DNA of 31,469 nt from Eubacteriales Family XIII. Incertae Sedis bacterium (lineage in GTDB: Bacteria; Bacillota; Clostridia; Peptostreptococcales; Anaerovoracaceae): NCBI GenBank assembly GCA_031272745.1, contig JAISTF010000188.1, positions 1-31,469 on the forward strand. Reading direction: 5' to 3'. Positions 8,534 through 30,800 of this stretch are shown here, one piece after another (the first letter of the stretch is position 1; each line of letters begins with the position of its first letter). The translations under genes and the position numbers were made by a program. Under the pieces are notes generated by a model. The model made no database searches. It worked only from the letters and a program-made list of their open reading frames with translations, and was not told where the DNA came from.

Positions 8534-11053
8534 ATGGCGAGCATCAACGTAACAATAGACGGAAAACAGGTTTCTGTAAACAGCGGCGCGACGCTCTTGG
8601 ACGCGGCGCGGGCGGCGGGCGTGGACATCCCGACGCTGTGCTACGACGAGCGGACGGAGATCTACGGCAGCTGCGGGCTGTGCGTCGTCGAGGTCGAGGG
8701 CAACCCGAAACTCGTGAAGGCGTGCTCGACGGTGGCGGCCGACGGGAACGTGGTCCATACGGACACGGCGCGCGTGATCGAGTCGCGCAAGACGATGCTG
8801 GAGCTTTTGCTGTCGAACCACGTCGGCGACTGCCGGCCGCCGTGCGTGCAGGCTTGCCCCGCGCACACGGACTGCCAGGGCTATGTGGGCCTCATGGCGC
8901 TCGGCAAGACGCGCGAGGCGCTGGAGCTCATCAAGGAGAAGATTCCGCTCCCCGCGTCGATCGGGCGCGTCTGCCCGCACCCGTGCGAGCAGGAATGCCG
9001 GCGCGGGCTCGTCGAGGAGCCCGTGGCGATCGCGTATATCAAGCGGTTTTGCGGGGATTGGGCGCTGGGCTTGCAGCCCGGCGCGGACGCGGGCGGGCGG
9101 CAGGATGCCGCCCCTACAAATGGGATTGCCGCGGACAATGAATGTAGGGGCGGCTTGCAGCCGCCCGCCGACTCGGGGAAATCCGTGGGGATCGTGGGCG
9201 CGGGGCCGTACGGGCTTTCGCTCGCGTACTTCCTGCGGCGCATGGGGCACGCGGTCACGGTGTACGAGGCGATGCCGCACGCGGGCGGGATGCTGCGTTA
9301 CGGCATCCCCGAGTACCGGCTGCCGAAGGCGGTCGTCGATGCGGAGGCCGCGGGCATCGAGGCGATGGGCGTGACGTTCCGGTACGGCACGAAGGTCGGT
9401 GCGCCGGAAGCGGGCGGCGGCACGGTGACATTGGATGAACTGCGGGGGGCGCACGACGCGGTCTGCCTCGGCATCGGGGCGTGGGTGTCGACGGGCACGG
9501 GCGCGGACGGGGAAGACCTGCCCGGCGTGGTCGGCGGGATTGATTTCCTGCGCGAGGTGGTGCAGGCAGACGGCATTCCCGACTTTCGCGGCAAAAACGT
9601 CGCGGTCGTCGGCGGGGGCAATACGGCGATGGACGCCTGCCGGACGGCGGTGCGGCTCGGCGCGGAAAACGTCTACAACATCTACCGCCGCACGAAGGCC
9701 GAGATGCCCGCAGACCTCATCGAAATCGAAGAAGCCGAGGAAGAGGGCGTCGTCTTCAAAAACCTCACGAACCCCATCCGCTACGAGGCGGGGGCGGACG
9801 GCCGCGTCTGCCGCGCCGTGCTGCAAGTGATGGAACTCGGCGAGCCCGACGCCTCGGGGCGCCGCTCGCCCGTGCCCGTCGAGGGCAAGACGGAGACGAT
9901 TGACGTGGACACCGTGATTCTCGCGGTGGGCCAGGCCGTGGACGCGGCGGGGATCGCCGCCGATTTGGAACTCACGCGGAAGGGCGGCGTCGCCTACGAT
10001 TCCGCGACGTTCCGCACCTCGCTGCCCGGCGTGTTCTGCGGCGGCGACTGCGGCAACGACAAGATTTCCATCGCGGTCGAGGCCATCGCGGACGCGAAGC
10101 ATTCCAGTGGCGTGATCGATGCGTTCCTGCGCGGGGAGGATGCGCCGTACAGGGCGCCGTACATCGTGGAGCGCACGGACGTGACGGAGCGGACGTTTGA
10201 GGACCGCGAGCGGGAGTGCCGGCCGCCGATGGGCGTGCTCGCGCCGGATGTCCGCAAGGGCTCCTTCGACGAGGTGGTCGCGGGTTGGACCGAGGCCGAC
10301 GCGGCGAAGGAAGGGGCGCGGTGCCTCGAGTGCGGGTGCGGGGATTTCTTTGAGTGCAGGCTGTATCGTTATGCAAACGAGTACGATGTGAAGCCGGAGC
10401 GGTTCGCGGGGGCGTATTCCGTGTCGCCGGATGATGCGGCGACGCTGAATCCGTCGGATGACGGGCATCCGTTCATCGTGCGCGAGGAAGGCAAATGCAT
10501 CTTGTGCGGGCTGTGCGTGCGCGTCTGCGAGGAGGTCTGCGGCGTCAGCGCGCTCGGGCTTGTCGGGCGCGGGTTCGACACGGCGGTCAAACCCGAGATG
10601 GAGAAGCCGCTCGCGGAGTCCGGCTGCGTGGCGTGCGGGCAGTGCGTGGCGGCCTGTCCGACGGGCGCGCTGCAGGAACGGCTGCCGCTCGCGAAATCCG
10701 TGCCGCTGGAGACGGAGAAGCGCGAGGCGGTCTGTGAATTTTGCGGGGCCGGGTGCAGGCTGGTGATTGAAGAATGCGCGGGGCTGTTTGTGAAGGCGAA
10801 CCCGGCGCGTACAGAGGACGGGCGGCTCGGGCCGATCTGCGTGCTTGGGAAGTTCGGGTACGGCACGGGCGGCGCGGAAAGCGCGGGCGGCAGGCTTGTC
10901 CTGCGCTCAGTCGCAGGGATGCCGCCCCTACATGGCGGAGGCGGCGCGGATCCTCTGGCGGCGGTCAAGGCGAAGGCCGCGTCGCTCGGGAGCGTCTCCT
11001 TCGAGGATGCGTTCCGCACCATCGGCGAGGCGTACCGCGCGCAGGGGGTATGA
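8534..11053 (+). CDS. 2Fe-2S + GltD-like FAD/NADPH + 4Fe-4S fusion subunit (StnC/NfnA-like), 839 aa, ending shortly after the Fe4S4 motif; carries REP-derived inserts
   Basis: SD AAGGA, ATG 8534. CYDER...CGLCVVE...AC, PCVQACPAH, GRVCPHPCEQECRR, GAGPYG, GGMLRYGIPEYRLP, GGGNTAMD, YRRT, RCLECGC, KCILCGLCVRVC, CVACGQCVAACP, CEFCGAGC...C. Confidence 0.88.
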   Translation: MASINVTIDGKQVSVNSGATLLDAARAAGVDIPTLCYDERTEIYGSCGLCVVEVEGNPKLVKACSTVAADGNVVHTDTARVIESRKTMLELLLSNHVGDCRPPCVQACPAHTDCQGYVGLMALGKTREALELIKEKIPLPASIGRVCPHPCEQECRRGLVEEPVAIAYIKRFCGDWALGLQPGADAGGRQDAAPTNGIAADNECRGGLQPPADSGKSVGIVGAGPYGLSLAYFLRRMGHAVTVYEAMPHAGGMLRYGIPEYRLPKAVVDAEAAGIEAMGVTFRYGTKVGAPEAGGGTVTLDELRGAHDAVCLGIGAWVSTGTGADGEDLPGVVGGIDFLREVVQADGIPDFRGKNVAVVGGGNTAMDACRTAVRLGAENVYNIYRRTKAEMPADLIEIEEAEEEGVVFKNLTNPIRYEAGADGRVCRAVLQVMELGEPDASGRRSPVPVEGKTETIDVDTVILAVGQAVDAAGIAADLELTRKGGVAYDSATFRTSLPGVFCGGDCGNDKISIAVEAIADAKHSSGVIDAFLRGEDAPYRAPYIVERTDVTERTFEDRERECRPPMGVLAPDVRKGSFDEVVAGWTEADAAKEGARCLECGCGDFFECRLYRYANEYDVKPERFAGAYSVSPDDAATLNPSDDGHPFIVREEGKCILCGLCVRVCEEVCGVSALGLVGRGFDTAVKPEMEKPLAESGCVACGQCVAACPTGALQERLPLAKSVPLETEKREAVCEFCGAGCRLVIEECAGLFVKANPARTEDGRLGPICVLGKFGYGTGGAESAGGRLVLRSVAGMPPLHGGGGADPLAAVKAKAASLGSVSFEDAFRTIGEAYRAQGV
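9095..9166. repeat. In-frame inverted REP doublet (GTAG family) inside the Stn-like large subunit
   Basis: GGGCGGCA-GGA-TGCCGCCC-CTAC (9095-9117), 26-nt spacer, GTAG-GGGCGGCT-TGC-AGCCGCCC (9144-9166). 72 nt = 24 codons, GRQDAAPTNGIAADNECRGGLQPP. Confidence 0.88.
10885..10931 (-). repeat. Long (47-nt) GTAG-REP variant, copy 1, in frame in the Stn-like large subunit
   Basis: Minus strand reads GTAG-GGGCGGCA-TCC-[24 nt]-TGCCGCCC. The flanked 53-nt unit 10883-10935 encodes AGGRLVLRSVAGMPPLHG. Confidence 0.88.

Positions 11054-30800: not shown

What the first reader, a model, noticed from the sequence alone, without database searches (positions are those of the whole stretch)
9094..29229. A GTAG-tagged palindromic repeat family living inside protein-coding genes ('coding REPs')
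Seen: five full copies of an element with consensus GTAG-GGGCGGC(A/T)-loop-(T/A)GCCGCCC (8-bp perfect stem), at 9095-9117, 9144-9166, 10885-10931, 11091-11137 and 29205-29227. Every copy is inside a CDS (Stn-like large subunit x3, thiN, carB) with the frame intact, and I found none in the intergenic DNA of this window. A 26-mer is identical in two unrelated genes 20 kb apart. Established: a GTAG tetranucleotide plus hairpin is the signature of REPs mobilised by RAYT (TnpA-REP, HUH Y1) transposases. These REPs are mostly extragenic, and in-frame palindromic inserts are best known from Rickettsia palindromic elements. Inference: this Clostridia-like genome hosts a REP family that survives in, and adds peptide to, housekeeping and redox enzymes. 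It uses at least two reading frames (GRQDAAPT; GGR...MPPLH). The CTAC-last orientation on the sense strand has no stop in any frame, and the one GTAG-first copy is read TGT-AGG, avoiding TAG, which suggests selection for translatability. No RAYT gene is in the window.
Basis: partly seen in the sequence, partly recalled or inferred. Interest (0 to 1): 0.88.

Follow-up and report, generated by a model that had tools for sequence, protein, structure and literature searches.

The report
In-frame REP hairpins inside housekeeping genes
A 24-base mobile DNA hairpin (a GTAG-type REP element) occurs about 235 times in this termite-gut Clostridia genome, and roughly 40% of the copies sit in frame inside working genes, adding 8 to 24 amino acids; this is real and unusually dense, but the same kind of event is already described in other bacteria.

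Summary
All five hairpins are at the stated coordinates (0 expected by chance) and lie in frame inside three real genes: a GltD-type Fe-S flavoprotein, thiN and carB. Orthologues in sister species lack the extra peptides.

Genome-wide, the 1.62-Mb MAG (85% complete, Family XIII-like) holds about 235 copies. At least 86 lie in 64 ORFs, including ProC, an Ile/Val-type class I tRNA synthetase, ProS, Def, Tgt, KsgA and HolB. Five of the six reading frames are used; the sixth contains TAG and occurs only at natural gene ends. Intragenic copies are as intact as extragenic ones. Per base, however, copies are still about three times denser outside genes.

The element is a canonical GTAG REP. Its cognate transposase class (TnpA_REP subclass 2.4, RAYT group 4) was found in four other genomes carrying the same 23-mer. 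None was found in this MAG or in its genus.

Both key features are already published: intragenic GTAG REPs (Di Nocera 2013) and in-frame REPs inside subclass 2.4 RAYT genes (Quentin 2018). This scan has also noted the same kind of thing on other DNA, including another termite-gut Bacillota genome. Verdict: a rich new member of a known kind.

Side observations: the identical 23-mer occurs in several phyla of termite-gut MAGs. In a Peptococcaceae MAG, 0 of 143 copies are intragenic.

The parts
9094..9117 (-). Short REP unit (24 nt; GTAG tag on the minus strand). Read on the plus strand as GGRQDAAPT inside the flavoprotein gene. Left half of a tail-to-tail (GTAG-inward) dimer.
   Evidence: absent from orthologues; a contig allele in run X1 lacks it in frame
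9144..9167 (+). Short REP unit with loop variant TTGCA, read as (C)RGGLQPP. Right half of the dimer.
9094..9167 (.). TT REP dimer with a 26-nt non-conserved spacer. It gives about 23 extra residues in the linker before the FAD-binding Rossmann strand.
   Evidence: Orthologue alignment. In the AF2 model, residues about 182-216 are coil with pLDDT under 50, between helix 165-179 and strand 217-221. 30 such TT dimers occur genome-wide with unrelated spacers.
10884..10931 (-). Long REP variant (48 nt; outer stem GGGCGGC plus inner hairpin CCTGCG/CGCAGG). Read as AGGRLVLRSVAGMPPLH near the C-terminus of the flavoprotein.
   Evidence: absent from orthologues; an in-frame allele without it is seen in run X2
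11090..11137 (-). Second long REP copy, one mismatch from the first and read in the same frame. It lies inside thiN, between the N-terminal strand YVIVTG and the CADGG motif.
   Evidence: a Logan contig of run X1 spans 10902-12647 with one mismatch
29204..29227 (-). Short REP unit inside carB, read as PGRQDAAPT. The net gain is 8 codons against two orthologues of the family.
   Evidence: 10 extra residues between two parts of the oligomerisation region when aligned to E. coli CarB 1a9x
8519..11053 (+). Host gene 1: 2Fe-2S / GltD-like FAD-NAD(P) / 4Fe-4S oxidoreductase (844 codons from GTG; 839 from the ATG).
11050..11832 (+). Host gene 2: thiamine pyrophosphokinase (thiN). Its start overlaps the stop of host gene 1 (ATGA).
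27870..31109 (+). Host gene 3: carbamoyl-phosphate synthase large subunit (carB).

Best explanation
These are copies of a canonical GTAG-footed REP element. The short form is GTAG + 8-bp stem GGGCGGCW + 3-nt loop + one G, 24 nt in all. The long form is 48 nt and carries a second hairpin in its loop.

This REP type belongs with HUH/Y1 tyrosine transposases of TnpA_REP subclass 2.4 (RAYT group 4). Those enzymes cut and rejoin single-stranded hairpins next to the GTAG guide and make no target duplication.

In this small, gene-dense termite-gut Family XIII-like genome the family expanded recently. Insertions landed in genes as well as between them. Gene copies survive for three reasons:
- The unit is a multiple of three (8 or 16 codons; dimers about 16-24).
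- Five of its six frames have no stop codon.
- The encoded Gly/Ala/Pro/Arg-rich peptides fall in linkers and loops.

Insertions read in the TAG frame, or sitting in intolerant places, have been purged.

Shown: the anatomy, copy number, in-frame state, absence from orthologues, the frames used, the lack of target duplication, and the link of this REP to subclass 2.4 RAYT genes in other genomes.

Inferred: that such a RAYT moved the copies in this genome, that the proteins are still functional, and that the inserts are translated.
For: - Anatomy and counts: 180 exact GTAGGGGCGGC cores and 235 elements under a relaxed pattern. Variants carry compensatory stems (GGGCGGC, GGGCGGGG, GGGCGACC).
- Boundary profile: Y-GTAG...CCC-G-C-c, i.e. 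a 24-nt core.
- Dimers: 30 TT, 31 HT and 3 HH.
- Target duplication: none found.
- In frame: 86 of 215 classifiable copies lie in a frame that is open and coding on both sides; 61 remain at a stricter cut.
- Host ORFs: all 20 tested are known proteins, and in most of them the element lies inside or between the Pfam domain matches.
- Conserved enzymes: Tgt has +19 aa and Def about +35 aa against solved homologues.
- Window inserts are absent from orthologues of G001, G002, G004 and G021. carB is +8 aa against G004 and G021.
- TAG-frame copies occur only where a gene naturally ends.
- Recent activity: no copy in the two same-genus genomes. 42% of intragenic copies are identical to the master sequence. 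In-frame alleles with and without a unit occur in two metagenome runs.
- Transposase link: a profile of two RAYTs found homologues in four other genomes that carry the same REP. They are preceded by, or carry in frame, that REP. Their motifs NH[IV]H, WQ and YIxNNP match subclass 2.4 of Quentin 2018. They are related to E. coli TnpA_REP 4er8.
Against: - No Y1/RAYT gene was found in this MAG by Pfam six-frame search, by tblastn with 10 RAYT or IS200-like proteins, or by a custom profile. None was found in the two same-genus genomes either.
- The MAG is only 85% complete. In other genomes RAYT loci sit on short, REP-broken contigs. Absence is therefore not shown, but presence is not shown either.
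- The two polymorphic alleles are bounded by short direct repeats (7 and 11 nt). They could be deletions rather than empty sites.
- There is no evidence of transcription, translation or enzyme activity.
- The AF2 model is of moderate quality (mean pLDDT 63.5).
- Gene calls come from my own codon-bias classifier, not from a curated annotation.
Confidence: 0.8

Rival explanations
1. The REP is pre-adapted to be read as protein. In subclass 2.4 RAYT genes, two copies are part of the transposase coding sequence. The REP sequence has therefore evolved under coding constraint in two frames (VGA..RP and GR..APT), and this is why it is tolerated inside other genes. This refines the main explanation rather than replacing it.
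For: Of 80 metagenomic RAYT loci of this subfamily, 59 carry a perfect GTAG hairpin inside the ORF. The hairpins sit at two fixed sites (median 39 aa before and 18 aa after the HUH motif). The tag is read GTA-GGG (VG.) in 36 of 39 cases and ..PT in most cases at the second site. In this MAG the same two frames account for 53 of 86 intragenic copies, against 40% expected (p = 6e-5). In-frame REPs within subclass 2.4 genes are reported by Quentin 2018.
Against: The most used frame is also the most hydrophilic of the open frames, so ordinary purifying selection on the host proteins gives the same bias. The identical element is never intragenic in the Peptococcaceae MAG G041, 0 of 143. Translatability alone therefore does not put it into genes.
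Confidence: 0.3
2. The intragenic hairpins are kept because they do something for the host. Examples would be mRNA structures that pause ribosomes at domain borders, sites for a DNA- or RNA-binding protein, or useful linker peptides.
For: Several copies sit at domain borders: the linker before the Rossmann fold of the flavoprotein, the MutL linker and a TPP-enzyme linker in other MAGs, and the CarB oligomerisation region. The hairpins are stable.
Against: The inserts are absent from the same proteins of sister species. They are polymorphic between related populations. They occur in unrelated proteins in five frames. Per base they are depleted in genes. All of this is what tolerated selfish insertions would show.
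Confidence: 0.07
3. A miniature inverted-repeat element moved by a DDE transposase, or an uptake-signal-like motif that arises by point mutation and biased DNA uptake, rather than a RAYT-type REP.
For: No RAYT is present in the MAG. The same 23-mer occurs in many co-habiting phyla. A ComEC competence gene is present and itself carries three copies.
Against: There is no target duplication and no terminal repeat beyond the hairpin. The units are insertions that add 8 or more codons relative to orthologues, not motifs written over existing codons. The GTAG foot, the GGG/CCC stem base and the link to RAYT genes elsewhere fit REPs.
Confidence: 0.03
4. An artefact of metagenome assembly or binning.
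For: The MAG has 233 contigs, and copies are about twice as common as expected near contig ends (20 of 235 lie within 150 nt of an end).
Against: The copies keep reading frames in 64 ORFs. A Logan contig of a public run spans the thiN copy with one mismatch, and other contigs of two runs from two different studies show in-frame alleles at the sites of the doublet and of the first long copy. The same phenomenon occurs on contigs of 60-190 kb in MAGs from other studies.
Confidence: 0.02

Closest known systems
Intragenic GTAG-tagged REPs (Di Nocera, De Gregorio, Rocco 2013, BMC Genomics 14:522, PMC3733652)
   Same: Short GTAG-footed palindromes occurring as singles and as HH/TT/HT dimers. Some lie wholly inside ORFs of known proteins, as 7-8-residue singles and 20-30-residue dimers. 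The TAG of the foot often supplies a stop codon at gene ends. The authors interpret them as tolerated insertions in loops.
   Different: That survey names no Firmicutes. Its richest case, Opitutus terrae, has about 70 table rows in a genome of about 6 Mb (size from my own knowledge). Here at least 86 copies lie in 1.62 Mb, about 40% of the family, hitting about 64 ORFs including many essential ones. No RAYT was detected.
TnpA_REP subclass 2.4 / RAYT group 4 and its REPs (Quentin, Siguier, Chandler, Fichant 2018, PMC6006769; Bertels et al. 2017, PMC5581495)
   Same: A canonical long REP with a GTAG foot and three G-C pairs at the stem base. The RAYT motifs are NH[IFV]H, WQ and YIxNNP. REP copies are inserted in frame inside the RAYT gene itself, and the subclass is scattered over many phyla. 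I found exactly this in RAYT genes of genomes that carry the window's REP.
   Different: In this MAG the enzyme itself is missing from the assembly. Only the REP population is seen.
Rickettsia palindromic elements (RPE), as cited in PMC3733652
   Same: Palindromic repeats inserted in frame in many genes of a small genome, with the proteins presumed functional. The behaviour is the same.
   Different: RPE-1 is much longer. Di Nocera et al. class RPE-4 and RPE-6 as CGTC-tagged, not GTAG-tagged, and report no dedicated transposase for CGTC REPs. The sequences are unrelated.
REPINs (Bertels and Rainey 2011, PMC3116915)
   Same: Inverted REP pairs that can fold into a long hairpin. They are thought to be moved by a single-copy RAYT.
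   Different: The 30 TT dimers here have unrelated spacers of 8-76 nt. The dimer does not look like the replicating unit.

Membership tests
GTAG-tagged REP elements | Short (20-40 nt) palindrome forming a stable hairpin | tested here: met
   8-bp stem and 3-nt loop. About -11 kcal/mol as ssDNA; 0 and 1 of 200 shuffles fold as well for the two short units tested.
GTAG-tagged REP elements | Conserved GTAG tetranucleotide at one foot of the hairpin | tested here: met
   GTAG is near-invariant in 165 aligned 23-nt copies and present in all five window copies.
GTAG-tagged REP elements | High copy number, dispersed over the genome, with sub-families differing by compensatory stem changes | tested here: met
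   235 copies spread over many of the 233 contigs. Stems GGGCGGC, GGGCGGGG and GGGCGACC each have a matching partner arm.
GTAG-tagged REP elements | Occurrence as HH / TT / HT dimers and clusters | tested here: met
   30 TT, 31 HT and 3 HH pairs within 120 nt.
GTAG-tagged REP elements | Mostly extragenic location | tested here: inconclusive
   129 of 215 copies are outside through-reading coding frames, and these are about 3-fold enriched per base. However, 86 of 215 are intragenic, far more than is usual.
REP/RAYT system (REPtron), TnpA_REP subclass 2.4 | A RAYT (HUH + Tyr) gene in the same genome, flanked by or carrying the REP | tested here: not met
   No hit in the 85%-complete MAG with Pfam PF01797, tblastn or a subfamily profile; the one weak hit is Maf. 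None in the same-genus genomes G001 and G002. The feature is met in G041, G043 and G044, which carry the same REP; G042 holds only a RAYT fragment with no REP beside it.
REP/RAYT system (REPtron), TnpA_REP subclass 2.4 | REP type of the subclass: long canonical REP, GT[AG]G foot, three G-C pairs at the stem base. RAYT motifs NH[IFV]H, WQ, YIxNNP. | tested here: met
   The REP reads GTAG-GGG...CCC. RAYTs associated with it elsewhere have NHVH, NHIH or KHIH, then WQRS, then YIENNP or YIDDNP, matching Table 1 of PMC6006769.
REP/RAYT system (REPtron), TnpA_REP subclass 2.4 | Insertion without target-site duplication (HUH/Y1 chemistry) | tested here: met
   No flank duplication clearly above shuffled controls for k = 3-6 at any offset.
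REP/RAYT system (REPtron), TnpA_REP subclass 2.4 | Cleavage and strand transfer of the REP by the RAYT | not testable with these tools
   Needs an in vitro assay.
REPIN | Inverted REP pair with a conserved spacer that replicates as one unit | tested here: not met
   The TT spacers are unrelated in sequence and 8-76 nt long.
MITE (DDE-transposase dependent) | Terminal inverted repeats plus target-site duplication | tested here: not met
   No duplication was found, and similarity between copies ends at the hairpin.
Rickettsia palindromic elements | Sequence family of Rickettsia RPEs (RPE-1 long; RPE-4 and RPE-6 CGTC-tagged) | tested here: not met
   The tag here is GTAG and the unit is 24 or 48 nt. 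Only the behaviour is alike.

The most novel reading that the evidence does not exclude
One and the same REP (identical 23-mer, GTAG + GGGCGGC stem + ATCCT or ATTCT loop) has spread between phyla inside termite-gut communities, together with divergent subclass 2.4 RAYTs. Its fate then depends on the host. It is strictly extragenic in a 3.3-Mb Peptococcaceae genome with 625 copies. It is 40% intragenic, hitting about 5% of all genes, in a small Family XIII-like genome where no RAYT can be found. That leaves open mobilisation in trans, or a burst followed by loss of the enzyme. If so, this would be a natural experiment on what limits REP invasion of coding DNA.
Probability: 0.25. Interest if true: 0.65.

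Novelty: new member of a known kind. Interest (0 to 1): 0.4.

Why it matters
This is one of the densest examples so far of a mobile hairpin written into working proteins, with about 64 ORFs hit in 1.6 Mb. It is, to my knowledge, the first worked example from Clostridia in the papers I could search.

It has practical consequences:
- Such repeats break MAG assemblies; copies are over-represented at contig ends.
- They add lineage-specific loops to marker proteins such as CarB, Tgt, Def and tRNA synthetases.
- They can hide their own transposase on tiny contigs.

The contrast with a genome where the same element never enters genes gives a handle on what controls tolerance of coding insertions. 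It does not reveal a new mechanism.

Tried and rejected
- RAYT in the MAG. Pfam Y1_Tnp six-frame search, tblastn with eight Y1 proteins from other REP-bearing genomes, then a two-sequence profile and an HMM over all six-frame ORFs all gave nothing. The only weak hit (C136) is the Maf protein.
- Other Y1 genes checked as candidate cognate enzymes. The 298-aa Y1 protein of G041 (L109) has REPs only about 500 nt upstream on one side, so it is not convincing. The classical RAYT of G043 (L110) is flanked by a different REP, GTAGGTTGGGG..., so it is not the cognate one.
- Target-site duplication: none.
- REPIN-type conserved spacers: none.
- Shared flanks between genomes: similarity stops at about 24-26 nt, while housekeeping genes are only 63-73% identical. 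The REP is therefore not carried on shared larger DNA.
- I first thought the in-frame REP pair inside RAYT genes was new. It describes the feature.
- A pure ORF-length criterion for 'intragenic' is too permissive at 63% GC (78% of random sites pass). I used the codon-bias classifier instead.
- The structure model is only moderately confident, so it supports 'coil or linker' for the doublet but says little about the long insert.
- Read laying could not cover the carB copy in the same 20-kb stretch.
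Full report
**1. The observation**

The pattern GGGCGGCW-N(1-30)-WGCCGCCC occurs five times in the window, at the stated coordinates. It occurred in none of 100 dinucleotide-preserving shuffles. The GTAG/CTAC tags adjoin each copy as described.

The 26-mer 9094-9119 equals 29204-29229. The two long copies share about 55 nt with one mismatch.

As single-stranded DNA the short units fold into an 8-bp stem with a 3-nt loop, at about -11 kcal/mol. The long form adds an inner CCTGCG/CGCAGG hairpin. The inverted doublet 9088-9172 can fold as one long hairpin at -32.7 kcal/mol, z -5.3.

**2. The copies are inside real genes and are insertions**

The three host frames translate without stops. 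The hosts are an 844-codon 2Fe-2S/GltD-like/4Fe-4S oxidoreductase, thiN and carB.

I fetched the orthologues from two same-genus genomes (G001, G002) and two other genomes of the family (G004, G021) and aligned them.
- The flavoprotein linker between FCGD and DSGKSVG is 13-17 residues long in the relatives and 37 here. The difference is the doublet.
- The C-terminal AGGRLVLRSVAGMPPLH segment is absent from G001 and G002.
- thiN has about 18-20 extra residues between its first strand and the CADGG motif.
- carB is exactly 8 residues longer than in G004 and G021.

Against E. coli CarB (1a9x) the insert is 10 extra residues in a gap between two aligned segments of the oligomerisation region.

An AlphaFold2 model of the flavoprotein was built from 36 homologues (mean pLDDT 63.5). 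It places the doublet peptide (about residues 182-216) in low-confidence coil between a helix and the first Rossmann strand. The long insert also falls in low-confidence coil, but much of that C-terminal part is poorly modelled.

**3. Genome-wide picture**

The window is contig C193 of a 1.62-Mb, 233-contig MAG. The MAG is 63% G+C and 85% complete. Homologues of the flavoprotein carry the names Clostridiales Family XIII and Anaerovoracaceae. The best public run holding the sequence is a termite-gut metagenome.

The MAG has 180 exact GTAGGGGCGGC cores and 235 elements under a relaxed pattern:
- the master GTAGGGGCGGCATCCTGCCGCCC, 86 copies;
- loop variants;
- a GGGCGGGG-stem variant, 30 copies;
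- about 20 long or composite forms of 40-51 nt (11 of them 47 nt).

The conservation profile ends at Y-GTAG...CCC-G-C-c, so the core is 24 nt.

No gene caller was available. I trained a codon log-odds model on the genome. A copy was called intragenic if one frame is open across it and is the best coding frame in both 150-nt flanks.
- 86 of 215 classifiable copies pass, against 68% of random sites (p = 3e-17).
- 61 pass a stricter threshold.
- The family is therefore about 3-fold enriched per base outside genes, yet about 40% of it is inside them.

The 86 copies lie in 64 ORFs, mostly in the middle of the ORF.

All 20 host ORFs that I scanned against Pfam are ordinary proteins, and in most of them the element falls inside or between the domain matches. 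They include ProC, a class I tRNA synthetase, ProS, Def, Tgt, KsgA, HolB, GpmI, MiaB, ComEC, GlgA and a SNF2 helicase. Tgt carries a TT doublet (+19 aa against the Z. mobilis enzyme). Def has about 35 extra residues.

Five of the six frames are used:

| Peptide | Copies |
|---|---|
| GGRQDAAPT | 34 |
| VGAACSRPP | 19 |
| AGGRMPPLQ | 15 |
| RAAGCRPY | 11 |
| RRGGILPP | 7 |

The use of frames is non-uniform (p = 5e-5). The sixth frame contains TAG. It is seen only where the TAG ends a gene just before the next gene's ribosome-binding site.

Intragenic copies are not decayed: 42% equal the master sequence, against 34% outside genes. No target-site duplication is detectable. TT dimers (30) have unrelated spacers.

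**4. Recency and polymorphism**

Neither same-genus genome has a single copy. Of 40 relatives only one has any (three copies), and in a 400-genome sample of the phylum only five have one or two.

Logan contigs of two runs were laid on 9000-28999. One contig spans the thiN copy with a single mismatch.
- Run X2 holds an allele joining 10870 to 10940. It reads in frame GKFGYGTGTGGADPLAAV, without the long REP and close to the G002 orthologue.
- Run X1 holds an in-frame allele without the first unit of the doublet.

Both variants are bounded by short direct repeats. They may therefore be empty sites or secondary deletions. Run X1 may be the sample the MAG came from, so it is not independent support.

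**5. What moves it**

No Y1/RAYT gene is found in the MAG or in its genus.

In other genomes that carry the same 23-mer, a profile built from two REP-invaded RAYT-like ORFs found homologues in G041, G042, G043 and G044.
- In G041 the gene is preceded by an array of four REPs and carries the genome's own REP in frame (GRQNAAPT).
- In G043 the gene is split over two REP-dense contig ends, and carries the exact master variant of this MAG.
- In G044 two in-frame REPs bracket the HUH motif.
- In G042 only a C-terminal fragment was found, with no REP beside it.

Of 80 metagenomic loci of this subfamily, 59 have a perfect GTAG hairpin inside the ORF. The hairpins sit at two fixed sites, and the stems differ by compensatory changes from locus to locus.

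The proteins are related to E. coli TnpA_REP (4er8, E = 1.5e-7). The second site is a short extra stretch (4 residues in the profile alignment) shortly after the HUH motif.

This architecture and the motifs NH[IFV]H, WQ and YIxNNP are those of TnpA_REP subclass 2.4, equal to RAYT group 4. Quentin et al. 2018 already report in-frame REP insertions within those tnpA_REP genes.

That such an enzyme moved the copies in this MAG is inference. Because RAYT loci sit on short REP-broken contigs elsewhere, loss from an 85%-complete bin is plausible but unproven.

**6. Distribution elsewhere (side observations)**

The exact 23-mer occurs in MAGs of many phyla, most of them from termite guts. Copy counts are:

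| Genome | Copies |
|---|---|
| Peptococcaceae MAG (G041) | 625 |
| Betaproteobacterium (G043) | 40 |
| Synergistales (G042) | 30 |
| Oscillospiraceae (G044) | 26 |
| Spirochaete (G045) | 6 |
| Human-gut Clostridiales MAG (G450; loops AACCT/AATCT) | 118 |

Between these genomes similarity stops at about 24-26 nt, while housekeeping genes are 63-73% identical. The RAYTs of G041 and G043 are only about 53% identical.

In the G041 loci, 0 of 143 copies are intragenic, against 59% of random sites. Entry into genes is therefore a property of this host, not of the element.

A few in-frame copies also occur in other termite-gut Clostridia MAGs: a TPP enzyme, MiaA, the MutL linker and a DUF512 radical-SAM protein.

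**7. Comparison with what is known**

Di Nocera et al. 2013 described GTAG- and CGTC-tagged REPs and their HH/TT/HT dimers. They noted the TAG foot acting as a stop codon. They also listed REPs wholly inside ORFs of known proteins in several species, richest in Opitutus terrae, with 8-residue singles and 20-30-residue dimers. Quentin et al. 2018 described the RAYT subclass and its internal REPs. Rickettsia RPEs behave alike but are a different sequence family.

This scan has noted the same kind of thing on other genomes, including another termite-gut Bacillota genome and several CPR genomes. I did not check those notes.

**8. Verdict**

The element is a rich new member of a known kind, not a new kind. 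Three points remain open: where the transposase is, whether the proteins work, and how the same REP came to be in several phyla.

Noticed in passing
L016-L095 (genome-contig loci); genomes G041-G045 and G446-G450: The exact 23-mer GTAGGGGCGGCATCCTGCCGCCC occurs in MAGs of many phyla, most of them from termite guts. Counts: Peptococcaceae 625 copies, betaproteobacteria 40, Synergistales 30, Oscillospiraceae 26. Defluviitaleaceae and spirochaete MAGs also carry it. A human-gut Clostridiales MAG has 118 copies with another loop. Similarity between genomes stops at about 24-26 nt.
   Followed up: partly
53 loci of G041 among L019-L094: In the Peptococcaceae MAG the same REP is never intragenic: 0 of 143 copies, against 59% of random sites. 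This is a sharp contrast with the window's genome.
   Followed up: partly
L142:335-805, L141:1324-1860, L140:500-1012 (minus strand), L113:1453-2058 (minus strand); L149-L228: RAYT genes of this subfamily carry in-frame copies of their own REP at two fixed sites, about 39 aa before and about 18 aa after the HUH motif. The stems co-vary from locus to locus, and 59 of 80 metagenomic loci show the feature. Quentin et al. 2018 already describe this for subclass 2.4.
   Followed up: yes
L110 (G043:C7:40419-43745): A classical 187-aa RAYT is flanked on both sides, within about 50 nt, by a different REP family (GTAGGTTGGGGTGAGC...). The betaproteobacterial MAG therefore hosts at least two REP/RAYT systems.
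   Followed up: no
window 9076-9131 and 10870-10940: Contigs of public runs show in-frame alleles lacking one REP unit (run X1) or the long REP (run X2). Forms with an extra repeat of the doublet region also occur (joins 9171 to 9091). The variants are bounded by 7-nt and 11-nt direct repeats.
   Followed up: partly
L001 (G001 carB), aligned to window 29190-29240: The same-genus genome G001 has a different, unrelated insertion of about 15 residues (AAAAAEGLSGDEAAGPFS region) at the same CarB loop. The loop appears to be a general hot spot for length change.
   Followed up: no
window 1441-4338: Two long coding ORFs (1441-2643 and 2647-4338) lie in one frame, separated by a single stop codon. 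This is either a read-through or recoding candidate or a fresh nonsense mutation in a large Mo-enzyme-like gene.
   Followed up: no
G000 contig ends, e.g. C39:33-55, C223:27, C226:39, C110:27-49: 20 of 235 REP copies lie within 150 nt of a contig end, about twice the expected number. The repeat breaks the assembly, so the true copy number is probably higher.
   Followed up: no
L119 (G000:C129:9793-12588): The ComEC competence-channel gene carries three separate in-frame REP copies, at residues 91, 180 and 602 of the ORF.
   Followed up: no
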